Assembly (NCBI RefSeq): GCF_006345805.1 | Contig: NC_043004.1 | Span: 4,588,001-4,652,000 of the forward strand | DNA length: 64,000 nt | From: Octopus sinensis | Lineage: Eukaryota | Direction: 5' to 3' | Shown: positions 8,020-51,062 of the stretch, piece by piece | Layout of the letters: each line of letters opens with the position of its first letter | How positions within the stretch are numbered: position 1 is the first letter of the stretch | The notes under the pieces: model-generated | What the model was told of the DNA's origin: nothing | The model's database searches: none | What the model saw: the letters and a program-made list of their open reading frames with translations, nothing else | Program-made: the position numbers and the translations under genes

Positions 8020-9305
8020 GGGTTGGCGGCAGTGGTGGGGATGAGGATGATGAAGATGGTGGTGGTGGCGGCAGTGATGGTGATGATGACAAGGATGTTG
8101 ACAATGATGATGATGATGATGATGGATTAAGTGAAGACGACAACGATGACAATGATGGCAGCAGTAATGATGATGACAATGACATTGGTAGTGGCAACGA
8201 TGATGATGATGATAGTGGTAGTGAGGACAATGATGATGATAATGATGATGATGACGGCAATGACAATGGTGGCTGCAATGATGACAATGATGATGATGAT
8301 GATGGCAGTGGCGATGATAACAACAACAACAATGGTGGTGACAGTGGTGGTGGCGATGACGATGACAACGGTGGTGGCAATGACGATGACAACGGTGGTG
8401 GCGATGATGATGACAACGGTGGTGGTGATGATGATGACAACGGTAGTGGCGATGACAATGACAACGATGGTGGTGATGACGATGACAACGGTAGTGCCGA
8501 TGACAATGACAACGGTGGTGCCAAAGACGATGACAATGGTGGTGGCGAAGACGATGGCAACGGGGGTGACAAAGATGATGACAACGGTGGTGGCAATGAT
8601 GATGACAACGGTGGTGGCGATGACGATGACAACGGTGGTGGCGCTGACGATGACAACGGTGGTAGCAATGACAATGACAATGGTGGTGGCGATGATGATA
8701 ACAACGGTGGTGGTGATGATGATGACAACGGTGGTGGTGATGACGATGACAACGGTAGTGGCGATGACAATGACAACGGTGGTGGTGATGACGATGACAA
8801 CGGTAGTTGCGATGACAAATACAACGGTGGTGGCAAAGACGATGACAACAGTGGGGCCGAAGACAATGGCAACGGTGGTGACAAAGATGATGACAACGGT
8901 GGTGGTGATGATGATGACAACGGTGGTGGCAATGACGATGGCAAAGGTGGTGGCAAAGACGATGACAACGGTGGTGGCGCTGACGATGGCAACGGTGGTG
9001 GCGATGACGATGACAACGGTGGTGGCGATGACGATGACAACGGTGGTGGCGATGACGATGACAACGGTGGTGGCGATGACAATTACAACGGTGGTGGCGA
9101 TGACGATGACAACGGTGGTGGCGCTGACGATGACAATGGTGGTGGCAATGACAACAATGATGATAACGATGATGATGACAACAGTGGCTGTGACGACGAC
9201 GATGACGGCAACAGTGGTAGTGATGATGACAACGATGACGGCAATGACAACAACAACAATGACGACAATGACAATGATGATGATGATAAGGAGGAGGAGG
9301 AGGAG
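8020..9305. repeat. 24-bp minisatellite (GGTGGTGGCGATGACGATGACAAC)n within (GAT)n-rich flanks
   Basis: Roughly 30+ units between ~8345 and ~9150. Open in several frames on both strands only because the unit lacks stops. Confidence 0.9.
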
Positions 9306-18141: not shown

Positions 18142-18814
<673 letters not shown>

Positions 18815-21655: not shown

Positions 21656-22447
21656 TTTAATATTAATGACTCAGAACATGTAAGAGTGATTCACCAAAAT
21701 GCCTTGTTAGATTTAGATTTATAATATTCCTTTCATTTTTCTACTGTGTTTTCTTTATAAATATAGAGGTCATCTTCATTCTAAAAATATCATCTGCTGG
21801 GGGACTGAGAGTCGCTCTATTGTTAAGATGCTAACCAACAAAACAAAGGGTTGAGAATTCAAATTCTTTAAAGACTAGCTTTGAAAGGAGAGTGTCTTTC
21901 CCATTGGCAGTACACTGTATGGTCCACCTGAGAAATACATGCACACATGCACAAATACACACACACACACACACACCTGCACACACATATATAGTATACA
22001 GCTGGTGGCATGTAAAAAACACCATCTGAACGTGGTTGATGCCAGTGCCCCCTGACTGGCTCCCGTGTCAGTGGCATGTAAAAAGCACCATCCGAACATG
22101 GTCAATGCCAGTACCCCCTGACTGGCTTCCATGTCGGTGGCACGTAAAAAGCACCCACTACACTCATGGAGTGGTTGGCTGTAGAAACCTTGCCACATCA
22201 GATTAGAGCCTGGTGCAGCCTACTGGCTTGCCAGTCCTCAGTCAAACTGTCCAACCCATGCAAGTATGGAAAGTGGACGTTAAATGATGATGATGATGAT
22301 GATGATATAAACAATGGGTGGATGAACTTGAGAGAGTCAATGGTCATTCAATTACATGTTATATTCTTTTACTCTTTTACTTGTTTCAGTCATTTGACTG
22401 CAGCCATGCTTGAGCACCGCCTTTAGTCAAGCAAATCGACCCCAGGA

Positions 22448-23795
22448 GGAGGAGGGGGCTTTCTTTCACAACCAATTGCTCCAGGACCCTACTCTGGTCC
22501 TAGGGACAGTTCTTTCTGATGTGGCCTGCCTCTAGGCACAGGTGATACTTGGGGAGGGCGTCCCTCAAGAATCACTGGGTACCTGCACCTGGACATTTTC
22601 ATAAAAACCTGGGAAAATCAGATTCTTGGCTGATTGGGTCTATAGAGTCAAAACAGCTTTCGACCCAACCCAATCAGCCACAAGAAAAACTTTCACATTA
22701 AGGAGCTTGGCTCCACTACCACCCAGACCCCAGCGGATAGTTTCTTCTATCCACTCAGGTTTTATCCCAGGTGGCAACCCACAGATCCAAGCTCTTGTCA
22801 ACTTCCTCCCACAATATGTGGGAAGAAACAAAATTTTATTGTCCTCCAGGGGCCGGCTCGCAAAAATGTGAGCCTCCTCAGGGGTGTCAAACAGCAACCA
22901 CACCGTTGCATATTTGACACCCCTGGAGATGAATTTAATAGTGGGCAAATATTTTGCCAACTCTTTCTCAATTTCACTCTTTTGAAAAAGGGCGATGGTG
23001 TCGAGTGACTTGGAGTATGTTTGTAGCACCACCGTACTCTCTTCAAAGTCTTTCTTCCACTGTTTGGGCGGGACAATTTCCCACTCCAATGTAGTGTTAT
23101 TTATCTTCTTTGCCATATTTCTTCTTTGAAAAAAAGTTCAAAGTTCAAAAAAACAAAAATACAGGAAGGAAGAAGACGAGAAACAGTTAAAAAAACACAG
23201 CAAATTCTTCTGGCCGTTCTGGTACTCCTGGCTAACTTGGCAATCCTCCTGGCAAGGGCACAAAACAGTCACAAAAAATACACAATTTTCGGAGGGATAT
23301 GCCCTCCCCCTAAACACAACCACAGGCAGACAAATGCTTGGAATTCAGTGGAGATTTCTTGTTAAACAAAAATAAATAAACATGAGCAACAAGCCCCCAC
23401 TGAATCCCTGCAAAAAACAAATGTCTTACTTAGTAGTTGTGCTAAAAACACAGCAAATTCTTCTGGCTGTCCTGGTACTCCTGGCCAACTTGATAATCCT
23501 CCTGGCAAGGGCACAAAACAGTTACAAAAAATAACACAATTTTCAGAGGGATACACCCCCAAAATACACTTGTCACCGCTGAGAGAGACTTTAAACACAA
23601 CCACAGGCAGACAAATGCGTGGAACTCAGTGGAGATTTCTTGTTTGAAAAAAATAAATAAACGCGAGCAACAGACCCCACTGAATCACCAAAAAACAAAT
23701 GTTTTACCTAGTAGTTGTGCTTTGATAATTCACAACGCTGGTATACTAAGATGTAACTCCAGCAGCAAAGAAGGATGCGTCCACACAGTAGTGAG
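22448..23795 (-). mobile_element. Non-LTR retroelement, 5'UTR plus ORF1 (Tx1/L1-like, gag-type CCHC knuckle), 3'-deleted, inserted in a SINE A head
   Basis: ORF 23116-22640 continues after frameshifts into EGRPP.YHLCLEAGHIRKNCP (~22503-22566). The 5'UTR has a ~250-bp tandem duplication (23190-23720). The SINE A head is at ~23797-23830 and the SINE A tail at 22360-22447. Confidence 0.75.
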
Positions 23796-25434
23796 GGAAG
23801 CAAGCTTCTTACTACACAACTACGCTTCATAATAAAAAAAATGCAGGAGAGAAGTAGGAGAAAACTTTTCAAATATAAATAAAGTGAAAGTATACAAAAA
23901 TAAACACTATTTTCCGTTTTACTTTTAGTTTTATTTCATTTTGAAATACTCCAGTGAAGAAATAAATATTTCAGTTTTTTAATTAACAATTAAATGCCTC
24001 TGATTTTGTATATACATATATATATATAGCATTCTAGCAAAAACTGTCCGACGAACGGAAATGGGAAACTCAGAGTAACAGGTTTTGTTGAATTTTCTGC
24101 TGCTTTAAATAAAGCATATTACTCTACCACTGGTATTTAAGTACTCTTTTTTCCACCTTGTTTCACATTTATGTGTTTACTCCGGTATATATATATATAT
24201 ATATAAATTATTTTAATATTGTTTACTCTTACTCTTACTCTCTCTTTTACTCTTTTACTTGTTTCAGTCATTTGACTGTGGCCATGCTGGAGCACCGCCT
24301 TTAATCGAGCAACTCAACCCCGGGACTTATTCTTTTGTAAGCCCAGTACTTATTCTATCGGTCTGCTAAGTAACGGGGACATAAACACGCCAGCATCAGT
24401 TGTCAAGCAATGCTAGGGGGACAAACACAGACACACAAACACACACACGCATACATATATATACATATATATATACAACGAGCTTCTTTCAGTTTCCGTC
24501 TACCAAATCCACTCACAAGGCTTTGGTCGGCCCGAGGCTATAGTAGAAGACACTTGCCCAAGGTGCCACACAGTGGGACTGAACCTGGAACCATGTGGTT
24601 GGTAAACAAGCTACTTACCACACAGCCACTCCTGCACCTATATGTTTATATATATTGTTTTATTATTGTTTATATTTTGAATTACATATATATGAGGACA
24701 CCAAAATCTTTTTAAGTACTTAGGGCCACAGTGGATTTTAATCCAGCCTTGATTATAACCTCTAACACTGTCACACTGTTTCTGTTAATTGCTCCGTCAA
24801 AACCACTTACAACAATAAATCTGTTTTTCCTATCATACTTTAACTTCAAAACATCTCACTTAAAGTCATGAGGGCTCATTAATCTTATGAGTCACAAGCA
24901 AATTTACTAGTGCTGATGTCACACACACACACAAAAAGAAGGTCCCTGTCACACCCTGTAAAGTAGTTTGCATAAGAAAGGGCATCCAACTATAGAAATT
25001 ATACCAAAACTGAGACATTGAGACAAGAAGTGGTCTGATTTGTTTGATCCTGCCAAACCACCCAACCCATTCCAACATGGAAAGTAGGCATAAAAAGATG
25101 ACAATGACAATTATGATGATGCACACACACACACACACACACAAACATATTGTACGTAACTTCAGTATACACACACATATATACTCTTTTACTCTTTTAC
25201 TTGTTTCGGTTATTTGACCGTGGCCATGCTGGAGCACCACCTTTAGTCAAGTAAATCGACCCCAGGGCTTATTCATTGTATGCCTAGTACTTATTCTATC
25301 GATCTCTTTTGCTGAACTGCTAAGTTACAGGGATGTAAACACATTACCAAGTGATGTTGGGGAGACAAACACAGACACAAACATATACACACACGTGTAT
25401 ATATATATACATATACATATATACGATGGGCTTC

Positions 25435-25981: not shown

Positions 25982-26007
25982 AGGTTTGGAGATGATGTAC
26001 AGGTATT

Positions 26008-26293
26008 ATATATTAGAAGAAATGAGGTAATCAGAAGATCGGATGGTTCATGTTTATAGATATTTATTTATATATTACATTTTTTACATATATATATCAT
26101 ATCATTCATATTATTAGCGTTTTCTCCCATTCCAGTGGGGTTTTCAAATTTGATTTGAAAACCCCACTGGAATGGGAGAAAGCGCTAATAATCTGAATGA
26201 TATGATATATATATGTAAAAAATGTAATATATAAATAAATATCTATAAACATGAACCATCCGATCTTCTGATTACCTCATTTCTTCTAATATA
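26008..26293. repeat. ~285-bp near-perfect palindrome of a dispersed repeat end, within (TA)n
   Basis: The arms are reverse complements around TTG at ~26150. A single-arm copy occurs at ~48700-48840. Confidence 0.9.
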
Positions 26294-26731
26294 TATATAT
26301 ATATATATACATTCGGTAGCTTTCTTACAAAGGGATCTAATGCTCTTAGCTTAGACTTTTTTGGGGGTAACCAGATTGAACCATCTCAAGTGTAACTACC
26401 CAAAATGGTTGTGACTTCTGGGACTTGACTGATGAAAGAAAGCCAAGAATAACCCATCTTATTTTGCTTGTCCTAGTTGTTGTTTCTCCCGTCCGCCGTT
26501 ATTTGATTTTGTCTGTTTCAGTACTTTTGATACAATAAAGGCATTTTATTATATCTATCCAATGTATGAAATAAAATTAATCTAATGATGCAGTGGTTGG
26601 TAAAATCTATATATTTAGCCCATAGGATTTAGTTTGAAAAACAAACACTAATATCTATCTGTAAGTTATTTAACAAATATGCCCCTCTCCTTTATATCAA
26701 ATTTCACAATCCTTTGGGTCTTGCAAATATA

Positions 26732-28442: not shown

Positions 28443-29145
28443 AGATAAGAAAGTTTGTTTGGTAAAGCACGTGGGTGAATATATAAGAAAATAGTAAAGT
28501 GTGAAAAAACGACAGAAGGCTTAAATGTTAAAAAATATATATATTTGTGTCAAAATGTCTGGAGAATATTGGAAAAATTTTTTTTGGGACTATCACTCAG
28601 GCGCAGATGCACACTGCATCGACAACAGATTGCATTCCCAGAATATAGAATGATACCTTTTAGTGAGCACATTGAGAAATGCGCAAAGCAACTACTGCCA
28701 CAATTTTTAATCTTCCCATTTTACCAATGTGCTTTCGGATCATCAACACAATTGAGAATGAACAAGGAAACATTCTTCATTGAAAAGTACAAACCCAGAC
28801 TCAACCATCCGAACATACTGACACAGAGAAATTAACAAGGAAAAGGGAAAAAAAAATTTTAAGCGATTATCTCCCCTACACCGGAAAAAATCACTCACTA
28901 CCTCCCCTTATTTAGAAATCTCCTGGAAATAAAAACAACGATAATTCCATGCAATATAAACATAACGTCACAAGAAATTTGAAAAGCTACACGCGAAACC
29001 GGTAATTTCTTTAAAAATTTTTTAAATTATGTCATTTTAAGGAAAGGAAAAAAAATTTTTCCAATATTCTCCAGACATTTTGACACAAATATATATATTT
29101 TTTAACATTTAAGCCTTCTGTCGTTTTTTCACACTTTACTATTTT

Positions 29146-29150
<5 letters not shown>
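28443..29150 (+). mobile_element. 5'-truncated Penelope-like retroelement: inverted 5' pLTR, GIY-YIG endonuclease C-terminus and pLTR, in (TA)n
   Basis: 28587-28835 encodes GLSLRRRCTLHRQQI...SEHIEKCA...FLIFPFYQ...RMNKETFFIEKYKPRLN (PLE EN-type C-terminus). ~28480-28585 is the reverse complement of 29050-29150. A hammerhead motif sits in the pLTR. Confidence 0.85.
28972..29011 (+). ncRNA. Minimal type I hammerhead ribozyme, U3-A8 core variant
   Basis: AAGAAAU-UUGAAAA-GC(UACAC)GC-GAAAC-CG-GUA-AUUUCUU. Stem I is a perfect 7 bp, stem II is 2 bp and stem III is the palindrome ACCGGU. Predicted cleavage after 29004. Confidence 0.75.
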
Positions 29151-29176
<26 letters not shown>

Positions 29177-29179
<3 letters not shown>

Positions 29180-29620
29180 TAAGAAAGTTGGTTTGTGAAA
29201 GCACGTGGGTGAATATATAGAAAATAGTAAAGAGTGAAAAAACTACAGAAGGCTTAAATGTTAAAAAATATATATATATTTGCGTCAATATGTCTGAAGA
29301 ATATTAGAAAATTAAAAAAAAATTTTTTAATTATGTCTCTTATAATGACATGATTTAAAAGAAAGACCGGTTTCGCGTGTAGCTTTTCAAATTTCTTGCG
29401 ACGTTATGTTTATGTTGAATAGAGTTATCGTTATGTTTATGTTCAGAAGAGTTCTAAATAAGGGGAGGTAGTGAGTGATTTCTTCCGGTGTAAGGGAGAT
29501 AATCGCTTAAAAATATTTTCCTTTCCCTTGGTGTGAATTTCTCTGTATCAGTATGTTCGGATGGTTGAGTCTGGGCTTATACTTTTCAATGAAGAATGTT
29601 TCCTTGTTTAGTCTAATTTG
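29177..29620 (-). mobile_element. Second, diverged copy of the same Penelope pLTR/EN end (tail-to-tail), with a hammerhead motif at 29359-29397
   Basis: Reverse-complement similarity to ~28750-29150. The minus strand reads AAGAAAUUUGAAAAGCUACACGCGAAACCGGUCUUUCUU. Confidence 0.8.
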
Positions 29621-29822
29621 TGTGTGTTCAGAGAGATACTTTTGTTAGTAACTAAGTAACTAAGGGCCTCTCCTTCAGAGTGAAAGGCAGATTGTATGAT
29701 GCCTGTGTACATACAGCTATGTTACATGACAGTGAAACATGGGCTTTGACTACAAAGGACTTGCAAAGGCTTGAAAGAAATTAAGCTAGCATGCTCTGCT
29801 GGATGGATAATATAGTCTAATT

Positions 29823-48213: not shown

Positions 48214-48349
48214 ATATAAGGATTTTTTTGCGTAATGAGATAAAAAACCAAGGCTGTATAGATATTAGAGCATTTATAGATATCTATAAATGCTCTAATA
48301 TCTATACAGCTTTGGTTTTTTATCTCATTACGCAAAAAAATCCTTATAT
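48214..48349. repeat. 136-bp near-perfect palindrome made from a PLE pLTR tail
   Basis: Centred at 48281/48282. The arm matches ~11196-11265, which directly follows a degenerate hammerhead motif (11151-11192). Confidence 0.85.
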
Positions 48350-49213: not shown

Positions 49214-49257
49214 TCATAAAGGCACAGGAGTGGCTGTGTGGTAAGCAGCTTGCTTAC

Positions 49258-50729
49258 GCGCATGCGTCACCCAGAGTGCATTTGGTTTGTCGTTTGTGTC
49301 GGAGGTTGGTTTTTGTTGCTGCTTTGAGGATAGAGGCAATGTACTCAGACTTTAGCAGGTCTGAATTATCCTCAGAGGAGGAGGAGCTGGTGAAGGTGGT
49401 GAGAAGAATGGACGGAATATTGGAGAGAACAAAATGTTTTTCTGAGGTGGCAGAGGTGAAGAGAAAGGATGTAGACCTGGCTGGACTAAAGGAATATGGA
49501 AAAATGATGCAGAAGGTGGGTGGTGATGTGTGAAGTTGTTGCCACTTGAAAGAATCATGGAGCAAATGGAGAGGAAAACTATCACCTGTAGGGTGCATTC
49601 ACTGAAGAACAAAAAGGCTGAACAAGTGGAAGCGGAAATAATAGAAAAAGCGCTAAGGAAACAGTCAACGGATGTAAATATGGACAGTGGTCATCCAGTT
49701 TAGAACAGTGGAGGAGGCGAAGAGGCTGGCAAGTGTGGTGGTGCTTCTGCTCACATATCTTGGAAGAAAGACTTCCAAAGTAAGAGTGGAAACAATCCCA
49801 CCTGATATAGAAGTGGCTTGGGTCACGGCAGCCGTCCTCGTTGGAAGTGAGGAGGAGGTGGCTGTCCTCAAAGTCACGGAAACAGGAGGAGGATAGAGAA
49901 GGGAATCACTGGATCTCATTCTGCAGGCGGAGGTGAAGCAGAGTTTGGCAAGACTGACGAGAAGAAGCAGCTAGAAAGATGGTGACGTTGGGAGAAATTG
50001 TGTTAAGAGTGTGGGTGGAGGGCAGAAGCCCATGTTGTTTTAAATGTGGCCAAAAGGGCCACATTAGAGCACACTGCCCTCTACAGAAGAAAACAATAGA
50101 TGAAATAACAGATGAACTAGTTGCAGAGATGGAGGAGAAAAGAGAAGAAAAAAAGAAAGCGAGAGGAAAAGAGGAAGAATGGATAGTAACAGAGTAGAAG
50201 GAAGAAGAGGAAGAAAAGAAAGAACACTGAGTATGATGTGGTACCCCAGTCCAACTCCATCCCACCCAAGACCTCTCAGACCCACCTGTCCTATACAGAC
50301 ACCAAACCCACCCACCCCCTTTCCCCACAGGAAAAGGGAAACGAGAAAAGAGCAGATACCACAGAATTTAGAAGACAGGGGTCTTCTAAATTCTGTGGTA
50401 TCTGCTCCCGGTGAAAAAGGTTACGAAAGAGTGTTGTCATTGAGCGATAGCAAGTGCGGAAATAGAAGGACTAGACCAGAGACTAAAGAGGAATTAGGAC
50501 TCAGAGACTGCGAGTGGTGTTACTCAGTGTGGAGTGAGTAGCACACTCTGCATATTTTCATTTTCAGATATCCTGCACGTTATCATAACCTTAATTTATT
50601 TTCTCATGTTCATTTTCACATCACTCATAGTATCATATTTTATTTTTACATATTTTTAATTGTTATTTGTCCCCACATGTTTTATAGTGTCCCCTCTATG
50701 TGATTCTTTTATGGCAAAATATTGAAATA
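49258..50729 (+). mobile_element. ORF1-only (HAL1-like) non-LTR retroelement with a CCHC knuckle and 15-bp TSD, inserted in a SINE A head
   Basis: Decayed ORF1 (VIQFRTVEEAKRLA...TYLGRKTSKVRVETIPPDIEVAWV...VWVEGRSPCCFKCGQKGHIRAHCP) ending in AATAAA. TSD AAG(C/T)AGCTTGCTTAC at 49243-49257 and 50730-50744. Confidence 0.8.
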
Positions 50730-51062
50730 AAGTAGCTTGCTTACCAACCACATGGTTCTAGGCTCAGTCCTACTGTGTGGCACCTTGGGCAAGTGTCTTC
50801 TACTATACCCTCAGGCTGACCAAAGCCTTGTGAGTAGATTTGTTAGACAGAAACTGAAAGAAACCTGTCATATATATATATGTATATGTTTGTATGTCTG
50901 CGCTTGTTCCCACCACCATTGGTTGATAACCAATGTTGGTGCGTTTACATACCTGTAATTCAGCATTTCAGCAAAAGAGACTGATAGAATAAGTACTAGG
51001 CTTACATAGAATAAGTCCTGGGGTCAATTTGTTTGACTGAAACAAATAAAAGAAAAACAAGA

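What the first reader, a model, noticed from the sequence alone, without database searches (positions are those of the whole stretch)
49221..50760. ORF1-only retroelement inserted in the tRNA-like head of the dominant SINE
Seen: a 1.47-kb element contains only a decayed gag-knuckle ORF1 and ends in AATAAA. It has a 15-bp TSD that splits SINE A right after ...GTAAG(C/T)AGCTTGCTTAC, and no ORF2/RT lies between the TSDs. Known: HAL1 elements are ORF1-only L1 derivatives, and Tx1-clade elements are often sequence-specific (tRNA, U2, 5S, microsatellites). Inference: a non-autonomous Tx1-like family that uses a high-copy SINE as its landing site.
Basis: partly seen in the sequence, partly recalled or inferred. 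Interest (0 to 1): 0.75.

Follow-up and report, generated by a model that had tools for sequence, protein, structure and literature searches.

The report
Half-LINE that homes into a SINE
In an octopus genome, a family of jumping genes that carry only an RNA-binding protein sits at one exact spot inside copies of a very abundant short repeat, and it likely gets there by borrowing the enzymes of a full-length jumping gene that sits at the same spot and shares its tail.

Summary
Confirmed. Window 49258-50731 is a decayed copy of a 1.35-1.51 kb ORF1-only retroelement family, flanked by a 13-bp duplication (15 with the shared AA) that splits a tRNA-like SINE head. Of 47 distinct loci, 41 keep a readable 3' end; 40 are followed by the same 13-mer. 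None holds ORF2. ORF1 (predicted two RRMs plus CCHC knuckle) is open in young copies and under purifying selection (dN/dS 0.15-0.28 at dS about 1). A young 5.45-kb LINE (APE, RT, zf-RVT; L1 group) occupies the same site in 30 of 30 copies and shares a 3' hairpin-AATAAA tail; it is the likely enzyme donor. A second ORF1-only lineage shares site and tail, while closer ORF1 relatives have other tails and targets, so target tracks tail. Elements carry a short 5' copy of the site, which rebuilds it and fits mixed arrays; it does not steer choice among SINE variants (12 of 28 versus 44%). Tx1 membership was not formally tested. Precedents: HAL1, Tx1-Mar/SINEU, Drosophila R1. This scan found the system before on other DNA of this genome.

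The parts
49221..49244 (+). 5' part of the SINE head with A-box-like TGGCTGTGTGG (49231-49241), ending at the inferred first-strand nick (GGTAA^G)
49245..49257 (+). 5' copy of the 13-bp target duplication (15 bp from 49243)
49258..50731 (+). ORF1-only retroelement, 1474 bp, about 87% identical to its nearest fetched relatives
49258..49266 (+). GCGCATGCG motif at the element's 5' end (within the first 30 nt, at most 1 mismatch, in 20 of 27 copies with both ends auto-called); resembles an NRF1-type Pol II promoter motif (label recalled, function untested)
49339..50541 (+). decayed ORF1 (several stops and frameshifts); open 400-408 aa in relatives L013, L138, L139, L140; predicted tandem RRM fold
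50036..50077 (+). CCHC zinc knuckle of ORF1
50350..50407 (.). 58-bp near-perfect inverted repeat inside the 3' part of ORF1, unexplained
50704..50716 (+). 3' tail hairpin position (family TGCC-N5-GGCA; one pair broken in this copy)
50726..50731 (+). terminal AATAAA, no poly(A) after it; its TAA mimics the target's TAA before the nick
50732..50744 (+). 3' copy of the 13-bp target duplication
50745..51041 (+). rest of the SINE: B-box-like stretch and body
22444..23808 (-). second landing at the same SINE-head site (13-mer 23808-23796) by the other ORF1-only lineage; 3' half deleted; lower end approximate

Best explanation
This is an old copy of an ORF1-only retroelement family that sits at one fixed site in the head of an abundant tRNA-like SINE and is likely copied in trans by an L1-group LINE found at the same site with the same 3' tail. 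Shown: the anatomy, the site, the partner's domains, the shared tail with a covarying 4-bp hairpin, purifying selection on ORF1, the 5' tag and mixed head-to-tail arrays. Inferred steps: (1) the element is transcribed from within the duplicated 13-mer, so the RNA starts with about 8 nt of target-like tag; (2) it makes its own ORF1 protein, which would coat its RNA; (3) the LINE's ORF2 protein would recognise the 3' hairpin-AATAAA tail; (4) its APE endonuclease would nick the bottom strand at GGTAA^GWAGC and the top strand about 13-15 nt further on, with target-primed reverse transcription; (5) the cDNA's tag would anneal to the trimmed top-strand overhang, rebuilding a full site at the 5' end, so later elements of any of the families can land there again; (6) the insertion separates the SINE's A and B boxes and likely silences that SINE copy.
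For: Site: of 47 distinct loci (60 fetched, 13 duplicates dropped), 41 have a readable 3' end: 24 are followed by SINE body, 16 by the 13-mer plus another element, 1 by neither; 5' ends: 31 SINE head, 9 tail of another element, 7 lost (tallied by hand). No ORF2 inside any element. Partner: L061:3912-9374 with PF03372, PF00078, PF13966 and a CCHC ORF1; a copy with open 467-aa and 1130-aa frames; 30 of 30 best copies end at the 13-mer, 28 followed by SINE body. Independent insertion: LINE ends 98.5% alike, their SINE bodies 91.7% (28 loci), and the 3' 13-mer variant tracks a diagnostic base in the SINE body; 5'-truncated copies also sit in the site (L032, L041, L045, L047, L049, L100). Tail hairpin: 88.7% of 124 cells paired, 8 double changes, 0 of 500 shuffles as high, slid controls 17-53%. 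ORF1 38-50% identical to the LINE's ORF1; dN/dS upper bound below 1 in 42 of 43 comparisons, 0.15-0.28 in the 14 with dS 0.9-1.4. ORF1 tree: the family groups (SH-aLRT 98) with ORF1-only elements that have other tails and targets, apart from the SINE-site LINE and the second SINE-site half-lineage. Tag: 12 of 13 full-length LINE copies whose target does not end TAAC still end CTAAC at the 5' junction; off-register joins 8 of 13 versus 2 of 12 when the target matches (Fisher p 0.04, post hoc) and are scattered over the tree. Precedent for steps 4-5 and arrays: Drosophila R1 (PMC2718515, section 11).
Against: No biochemical step was tested. The young LINE (98-99% alike) is younger than this copy (about 13% from relatives), so its donor was an older relative that I did not isolate; older LINE-tailed copies at the site exist (L031, L047, L050, L052). 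The searches rank full-length, close copies first, so off-target or truncated copies are under-sampled (only 40 of 930 and 40 of 716 candidates scored). dN/dS comparisons all use L013, are not independent, and the window's own copy did not pass the filter. The ORF1 tree is midpoint-rooted, so it does not give the direction of the target change. The hairpin shuffle control ignores relatedness. 1 of 41 3' ends (L009) lacks the target beyond its first 3 bases.
Confidence: 0.82

Rival explanations
1. The RNA's 5' tag guides the choice of target by base-pairing, so specificity is RNA-guided rather than set by the endonuclease.
For: The tag exists and overwrites the target variant (12 of 13). In a sister lineage with unique-site landings, one array (L189) repeats a non-SINE leader at both ends.
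Against: The LINE with a TAAC tag lands in TAAC heads in 12 of 28 cases, equal to their 44% share of exact empty heads (26,029 of 58,734; binomial p 1.0). Families with different tags share one nick position. In TPRT the first nick comes before the cDNA reaches the RNA's 5' end (established knowledge).
Confidence: 0.07
2. The element spread by hitchhiking: one SINE copy that already held it was multiplied as a composite.
For: Head and body of the SINE flank most copies in register.
Against: Flanking SINE bodies are far more varied than the LINE inside (91.7% versus 98.5%); several unrelated families and 5'-truncated copies occupy the same site; one subfamily occurs in both TTAC and TAAC heads. 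The identity test was run on the LINE, not on the ORF1-only family.
Confidence: 0.03
3. ORF1-only copies are repeated, independent internal deletions of autonomous LINEs and were never a replicating family.
For: ORF1 and tail are homologous to the LINE's.
Against: Same ORF1-to-tail layout and length across subfamilies separated by dS about 1; ORF1 only 38-50% identical to the LINE's; no ORF2 in 47 loci; among 30 loci of the closest other ORF1 lineage the 4 ORF2 hits are upstream, on the other strand or behind a finished tail.
Confidence: 0.05
4. The arrays form by template jumping or unequal recombination between duplications, not by repeated insertion.
For: Units are head-to-tail with one 13-mer between them; template jumping is known for non-LTR RTs (cited in PMC4494074).
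Against: Arrays mix families and subfamilies of different divergence (L008, L011, L014, L016, L028, L138, L144), as expected of serial insertion; R1 arrays were explained by serial insertion (PMC2718515). Age order within arrays was not tested.
Confidence: 0.15

Closest known systems
HAL1 (half-L1) of mammals (PMC5753468, passages; Bao and Jurka 2010 not held)
   Same: Non-autonomous LINE derivative that encodes only ORF1p; more than one ORF1-only lineage.
   Different: Here the elements are site-specific, end in hairpin-AATAAA without poly(A), and ORF1 is a predicted RRM-RRM-CCHC protein (mammalian L1 ORF1p lacks a knuckle: recalled). Site specificity is not mentioned for HAL1 in the passages seen.
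Tx1-Mar LINEs with SINEU in crocodilians; Tx1L in Tx1D (PMC4494074, passages and part 3 of 5; PMC1950540, passages)
   Same: APE-type LINE that targets another transposon; non-autonomous passengers share the target and occur in tandem; the endonuclease sets the target.
   Different: There the target is a DNA transposon, with two preferred regions in Mariner-N4, and the passengers are non-coding SINEs; here the target is one base in a SINE's tRNA-like head and the passengers encode a selected ORF1.
R1 of Drosophila (PMC2718515, section 11 read whole)
   Same: 14-bp duplication, tandem arrays separated by the duplication through insertion at the 5' copy, and target-derived 5' RNA sequence that anneals at second-strand priming in some lineages.
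   Different: R1 targets 28S rDNA, belongs to another clade, and no ORF1-only passengers are described in that section.
Dada DNA transposons and tRNA-gene-specific NeSL/LIN elements (PMC3706591, one passage; PMC4640811, passages)
   Same: Insertion at or beside the Pol III A box, or in tRNA genes.
   Different: Different enzyme classes and true tRNA genes as targets; the best-aligned tRNA genes here differ at the 13-mer.

Membership tests
HAL1 | encodes ORF1 only, no ORF2 | tested here: met
   no ORF2 inside elements at 47 loci; open ORF1 in 4 copies
HAL1 | replicating non-autonomous family, not a one-off deletion | tested here: met
HAL1 | derived from the L1 clade proper | tested here: inconclusive
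   partner ORF2 is closest to human L1 ORF2p in the PDB (224 bits over residues 6-867, R2 at most 74), but ORF1 has a CCHC knuckle; L1 versus Tx1 not resolved
HAL1 | poly(A) tail as in mammalian L1 derivatives (feature recalled) | tested here: not met
   ends in GAAATAAA directly before the target
Tx1 clade (partner LINE) | APE-type endonuclease at the N-terminus of ORF2 | tested here: met
   PF03372 E 1e-12; feature per PMC4640811
Tx1 clade (partner LINE) | RT followed by a C-terminal zinc-binding domain; ORF1 with CCHC knuckle (feature recalled) | tested here: met
   PF00078, PF13966, PF00098
Tx1 clade (partner LINE) | target-sequence preference (over 20% of flanks, criterion of PMC4494074) | tested here: met
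   30 of 30
Tx1 clade (partner LINE) | RT phylogeny places it within Tx1 | not testable with these tools
   no labelled Tx1 RT among hits; Repbase/RTclass1 not available; Atlas gave no answer
tRNA-derived SINE (host repeat) | head collinear with a tRNA, A and B boxes in place | tested here: met
   (z 4.0-4.9 to tRNA-Lys/Thr; parent not resolved); ARAGORN and Rfam negative
tRNA-derived SINE (host repeat) | transcription by RNA polymerase III | not testable with these tools
   only contigs available

The most novel reading that the evidence does not exclude
A SINE-homing LINE supports a guild of protein-coding hyperparasites: unrelated ORF1-only lineages were retargeted to the SINE's promoter by adopting this LINE's 30-nt hairpin tail, each keeps its own selected ORF1, and each rebuilds the landing site with a 5' RNA tag, so SINE copies are knocked out and turned into growing mixed stacks. 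The tail alone would then be a portable address for site-specific insertion, with natural sister lineages aimed at a second SINE or at unique sites.
Probability: 0.35. Interest if true: 0.72.

Novelty: new variant of a known kind. Interest (0 to 1): 0.52.

Why it matters
Each ingredient has a precedent, but I found no paper on a LINE with ORF1-only passengers homing to one base of a SINE head (ten searches; Repbase and several key papers were not available, so the families may be catalogued there). The system gives a natural comparison for two open points: why half-LINEs keep ORF1 under selection, and whether the 3' tail or the ORF1 decides which LINE enzyme, and hence which target, a passenger uses. 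It also offers an APE endonuclease with tens of thousands of natural target variants, filled and empty, for mapping specificity. Effect on the SINE is small at present: about 0.9% of exact-match heads are filled (504 against 58,734 empty).

Tried and rejected
ARAGORN on the window and Rfam on one SINE copy gave no tRNA call. Full-length ORF2 homologue search returned 3 unnamed proteins, no clade label; the Atlas gave no answer. Pfam on 13 remote ORF1 homologues gave only zinc knuckles, no Tx1/ZCCHC3-type RRM family. Frame-by-frame tblastn to map the window copy's breaks returned nothing with the settings used. Sequencing runs: no RNA holder on record, no evidence on expression or start site. 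Laying contigs of 4 runs: joints skipping 1488 bases come from any empty SINE copy and do not show an empty orthologous site; no piece spans the locus. The idea that the odd TTTGCTAAC junction is an inherited subfamily mark was rejected: it is scattered on a star-like tree with no diagnostic column. RNA-tag steering among SINE variants was not supported. Single-sequence MFE folds of the tails did not all show the hairpin; support rests on covariation. L176, first labelled as a possible autonomous ORF1 relative, has a finished tail before the ORF2 fragment. Four papers were not held (PMC2923044, PMC85248, PMC4795812, PMC15861). No supplements were read; those of PMC13282606 (repeat library) could already hold these families.

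Full report
Observation. The element spans 49258-50731 (+), 1474 bp, between GCAGCTTGCTTAC (49245-49257) and GTAGCTTGCTTAC (50732-50744); with the AA shared by the target and the terminal AATAAA the repeat is 15 bp with one mismatch. Removing it restores a SINE seen several times in the window. It holds one decayed frame that aligns over all 400 aa of an open relative, and an ORF2 query finds nothing in the window. The genome is an octopus: a protein named Octopus sinensis by NCBI matches it at 100%. The SINE head is collinear with this genome's tRNA-Lys and tRNA-Thr genes (z 4.0-4.9, 15 distinct tRNAs from 30 loci); the insertion lies at the end of the A-box-like stretch, upstream of the B box.

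The family. Two DNA searches (40 of 930 and 40 of 716 candidates scored) gave 60 loci, 47 distinct. Tallying by hand: 41 have a readable 3' end, followed by SINE body (24), by the 13-mer plus another element (16, counting L030, whose 13-mer has 3 changes) or by neither (1, L009); 6 lack the 3' end. At the 5' end 31 follow a SINE head, 9 follow the tail of another element, 7 are lost. Lengths with both ends auto-called are 1350-1510 bp across subfamilies 75-98% alike. The only ORF2 hit in the 60 loci lies outside the element (L002). ORF1 is open (400-408 aa) in L013, L138, L139 and L140. Against L013, dN/dS has an upper 95% bound below 1 in 42 of 43 copies that passed the filter (at least 120 codons, pieces at least 50% identical), and is 0.15-0.28 in the 14 with dS 0.9-1.4 (comparisons not independent; the window's copy did not pass). 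A model of residues 1-260 (pLDDT 75) matches tandem-RRM proteins best (E about 1e-4, TM-scores 0.2-0.4), followed by a CCHC knuckle. Homologues are named from O. bimaculoides, O. vulgaris and Argonauta hians.

The partner. A pattern for tail plus target gave 339 exact junctions (control 0) and 165 more for the TAAC variant, against 32,705 and 26,029 exact empty heads, about 0.9% filled. Of the first 30 loci, 5 are LINE-tailed, 2 this family, 20 a second ORF1-only lineage and 3 unassigned; of the first 30, 11 LINE and 19 second lineage by tail. L061:3912-9374 is a full LINE with CCHC ORF1, APE, RT and zf-RVT; L099 has open 467-aa and 1130-aa frames. Its 40 best copies are 95-100% alike and 30 of 30 examined end at the 13-mer, 28 followed by SINE body. 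ORF2 is closest to human L1 ORF2p among solved structures; no labelled Tx1 sequence was available, so 'Tx1' stays a likely label. A recent O. vulgaris annotation lists 13 recently active L1-Tx1 families, and the words 'target', 'nested' and 'ORF1' do not occur in its main text (PMC13282606, passages). Hitchhiking is unlikely: LINE ends are 98.5% alike, their SINE bodies 91.7%, and the 3' 13-mer variant tracks a base in the body (TAAC with AT 11 of 11 scored; TTAC with AC 8 of 10).

Tail, not ORF1, tracks the target. All three groups at this site end in a 4-bp hairpin and GAAATAAA; across 31 distinct tails 88.7% of cells pair, with 8 double changes (0 of 500 shuffles; slid controls 17-53%; relatedness not controlled). 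In an ORF1 tree of 26 rows the finding's family groups (SH-aLRT 98) with ORF1-only elements ending mostly in GGGTAATAAAGAAAT-type tails, apart from the LINE and the second lineage (midpoint root). Those relatives (30 loci) do not sit in this site: L163, L166, L167, L169 (and L202) sit in the head of a second SINE, and L181, L182, L185, L187 at unique sites with 17-24 bp duplications; others could not be called. This fits the view that a passenger's tail selects the LINE enzyme and the enzyme's endonuclease selects the site (PMC4494074, passages). The direction of change is not shown.

The 5' tag and arrays. In 30 full-length LINE copies (29 of 39 fetched plus L061), 13 have a SINE-body target not ending in TAAC; 12 of them still end CTAAC at the 5' junction. 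One-base off-register joins occur in 8 of these 13 and in 2 of 12 matched targets (p 0.04, post hoc) and do not form a clade. In the ORF1-only family L024, L136 and L142 show the same overwrite, and L009 and L030 show a full duplication followed by an extra tag-like piece. 5'-truncated copies have true duplications of about 7-15 bp (read by eye). I infer an RNA that starts inside the donor's duplication and anneals to the trimmed overhang. The lead came from note e1-8665859. The tag does not steer choice among SINE variants: 12 of 28 targets are TAAC against 44% background. Rebuilt sites fit the mixed arrays (L008, L011, L014, L016, L028, L138, L144). Drosophila R1 shows 14-bp duplications, arrays by insertion at the 5' duplication, and target-derived 5' RNA (PMC2718515, section 11). 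In the window's copy the 5' repeat matches the target variant.

Comparison and verdict. It works like HAL1 (PMC5753468, passages) but is not filed as HAL1: no poly(A) tail, clade unresolved. It resembles Tx1-Mar with SINEU and R1. The combination, a SINE head as exact target with ORF1-coding passengers, was not found in ten literature searches (listings only, apart from the papers named here and PMC4640811, PMC4758252, PMC3706591, PMC1950540, passages); Repbase, Bao and Jurka 2010 and supplements were not seen. Earlier agents of this scan reported the system at other places of this genome. Some of their notes say the target SINE shares the LINE's tail; the SINE split here ends differently (by eye), whereas the second SINE has the related tail and sits at a fixed site in its own head, and I cannot tell which SINE each note means. 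Verdict: real, new variant of a known kind, interest 0.52.

Noticed in passing
window 23808-22444 (-): Second landing at the same SINE-head site by the other ORF1-only lineage; 5' UTR holds a duplicated stretch of about 250 bp, the 3' half is deleted and joined to a SINE tail.
   Followed up: partly
L163, L166, L167, L169, L202: Sister ORF1-only elements inserted in the head of a second SINE, duplications of about 18-21 bp where called, and a 5' TCAGC variant where the target has TTAGC.
   Followed up: partly
L181, L182, L185, L187, L189: Sister ORF1-only elements at unique sites with 17-24 bp duplications; L189 repeats a non-SINE leader at both ends; many relatives with open ORF1 are spaced about 1.65 kb apart in arrays (e.g. 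G000:C5:19144294-19149981).
   Followed up: partly
L193-L212; L027:1-1454: The second SINE carries a related hairpin tail, sits at a fixed site in its own head (20 exact junctions, mostly SINE-tailed), and once sits in the first SINE's head site (L027).
   Followed up: partly
window 50350-50407: 58-bp near-perfect inverted repeat inside the decayed ORF1; half of it also self-matches in L005, L007 and L010.
   Followed up: no
L244, L247: A different LINE-like tail (hairpin CGCC/GGCG) at the same site, probably a second autonomous lineage.
   Followed up: no
L176:2950-3350: An element whose ORF1 start runs directly into endonuclease sequence (ORF1 deleted), behind an ORF1-only unit.
   Followed up: no
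window 8024-9285; 28746-29623; 26007-26295; 48214-48349; 18420-18658: A tandem-repeat block and several long inverted repeats seen in the self-comparison.
   Followed up: no
genome-wide: The GAAG...TTCC head variant looks more often filled (27 of the first 100 listed junctions, 4,224 exact empty heads, roughly 2%) than the TAAC variant (0.6%), possibly reflecting age.
   Followed up: no
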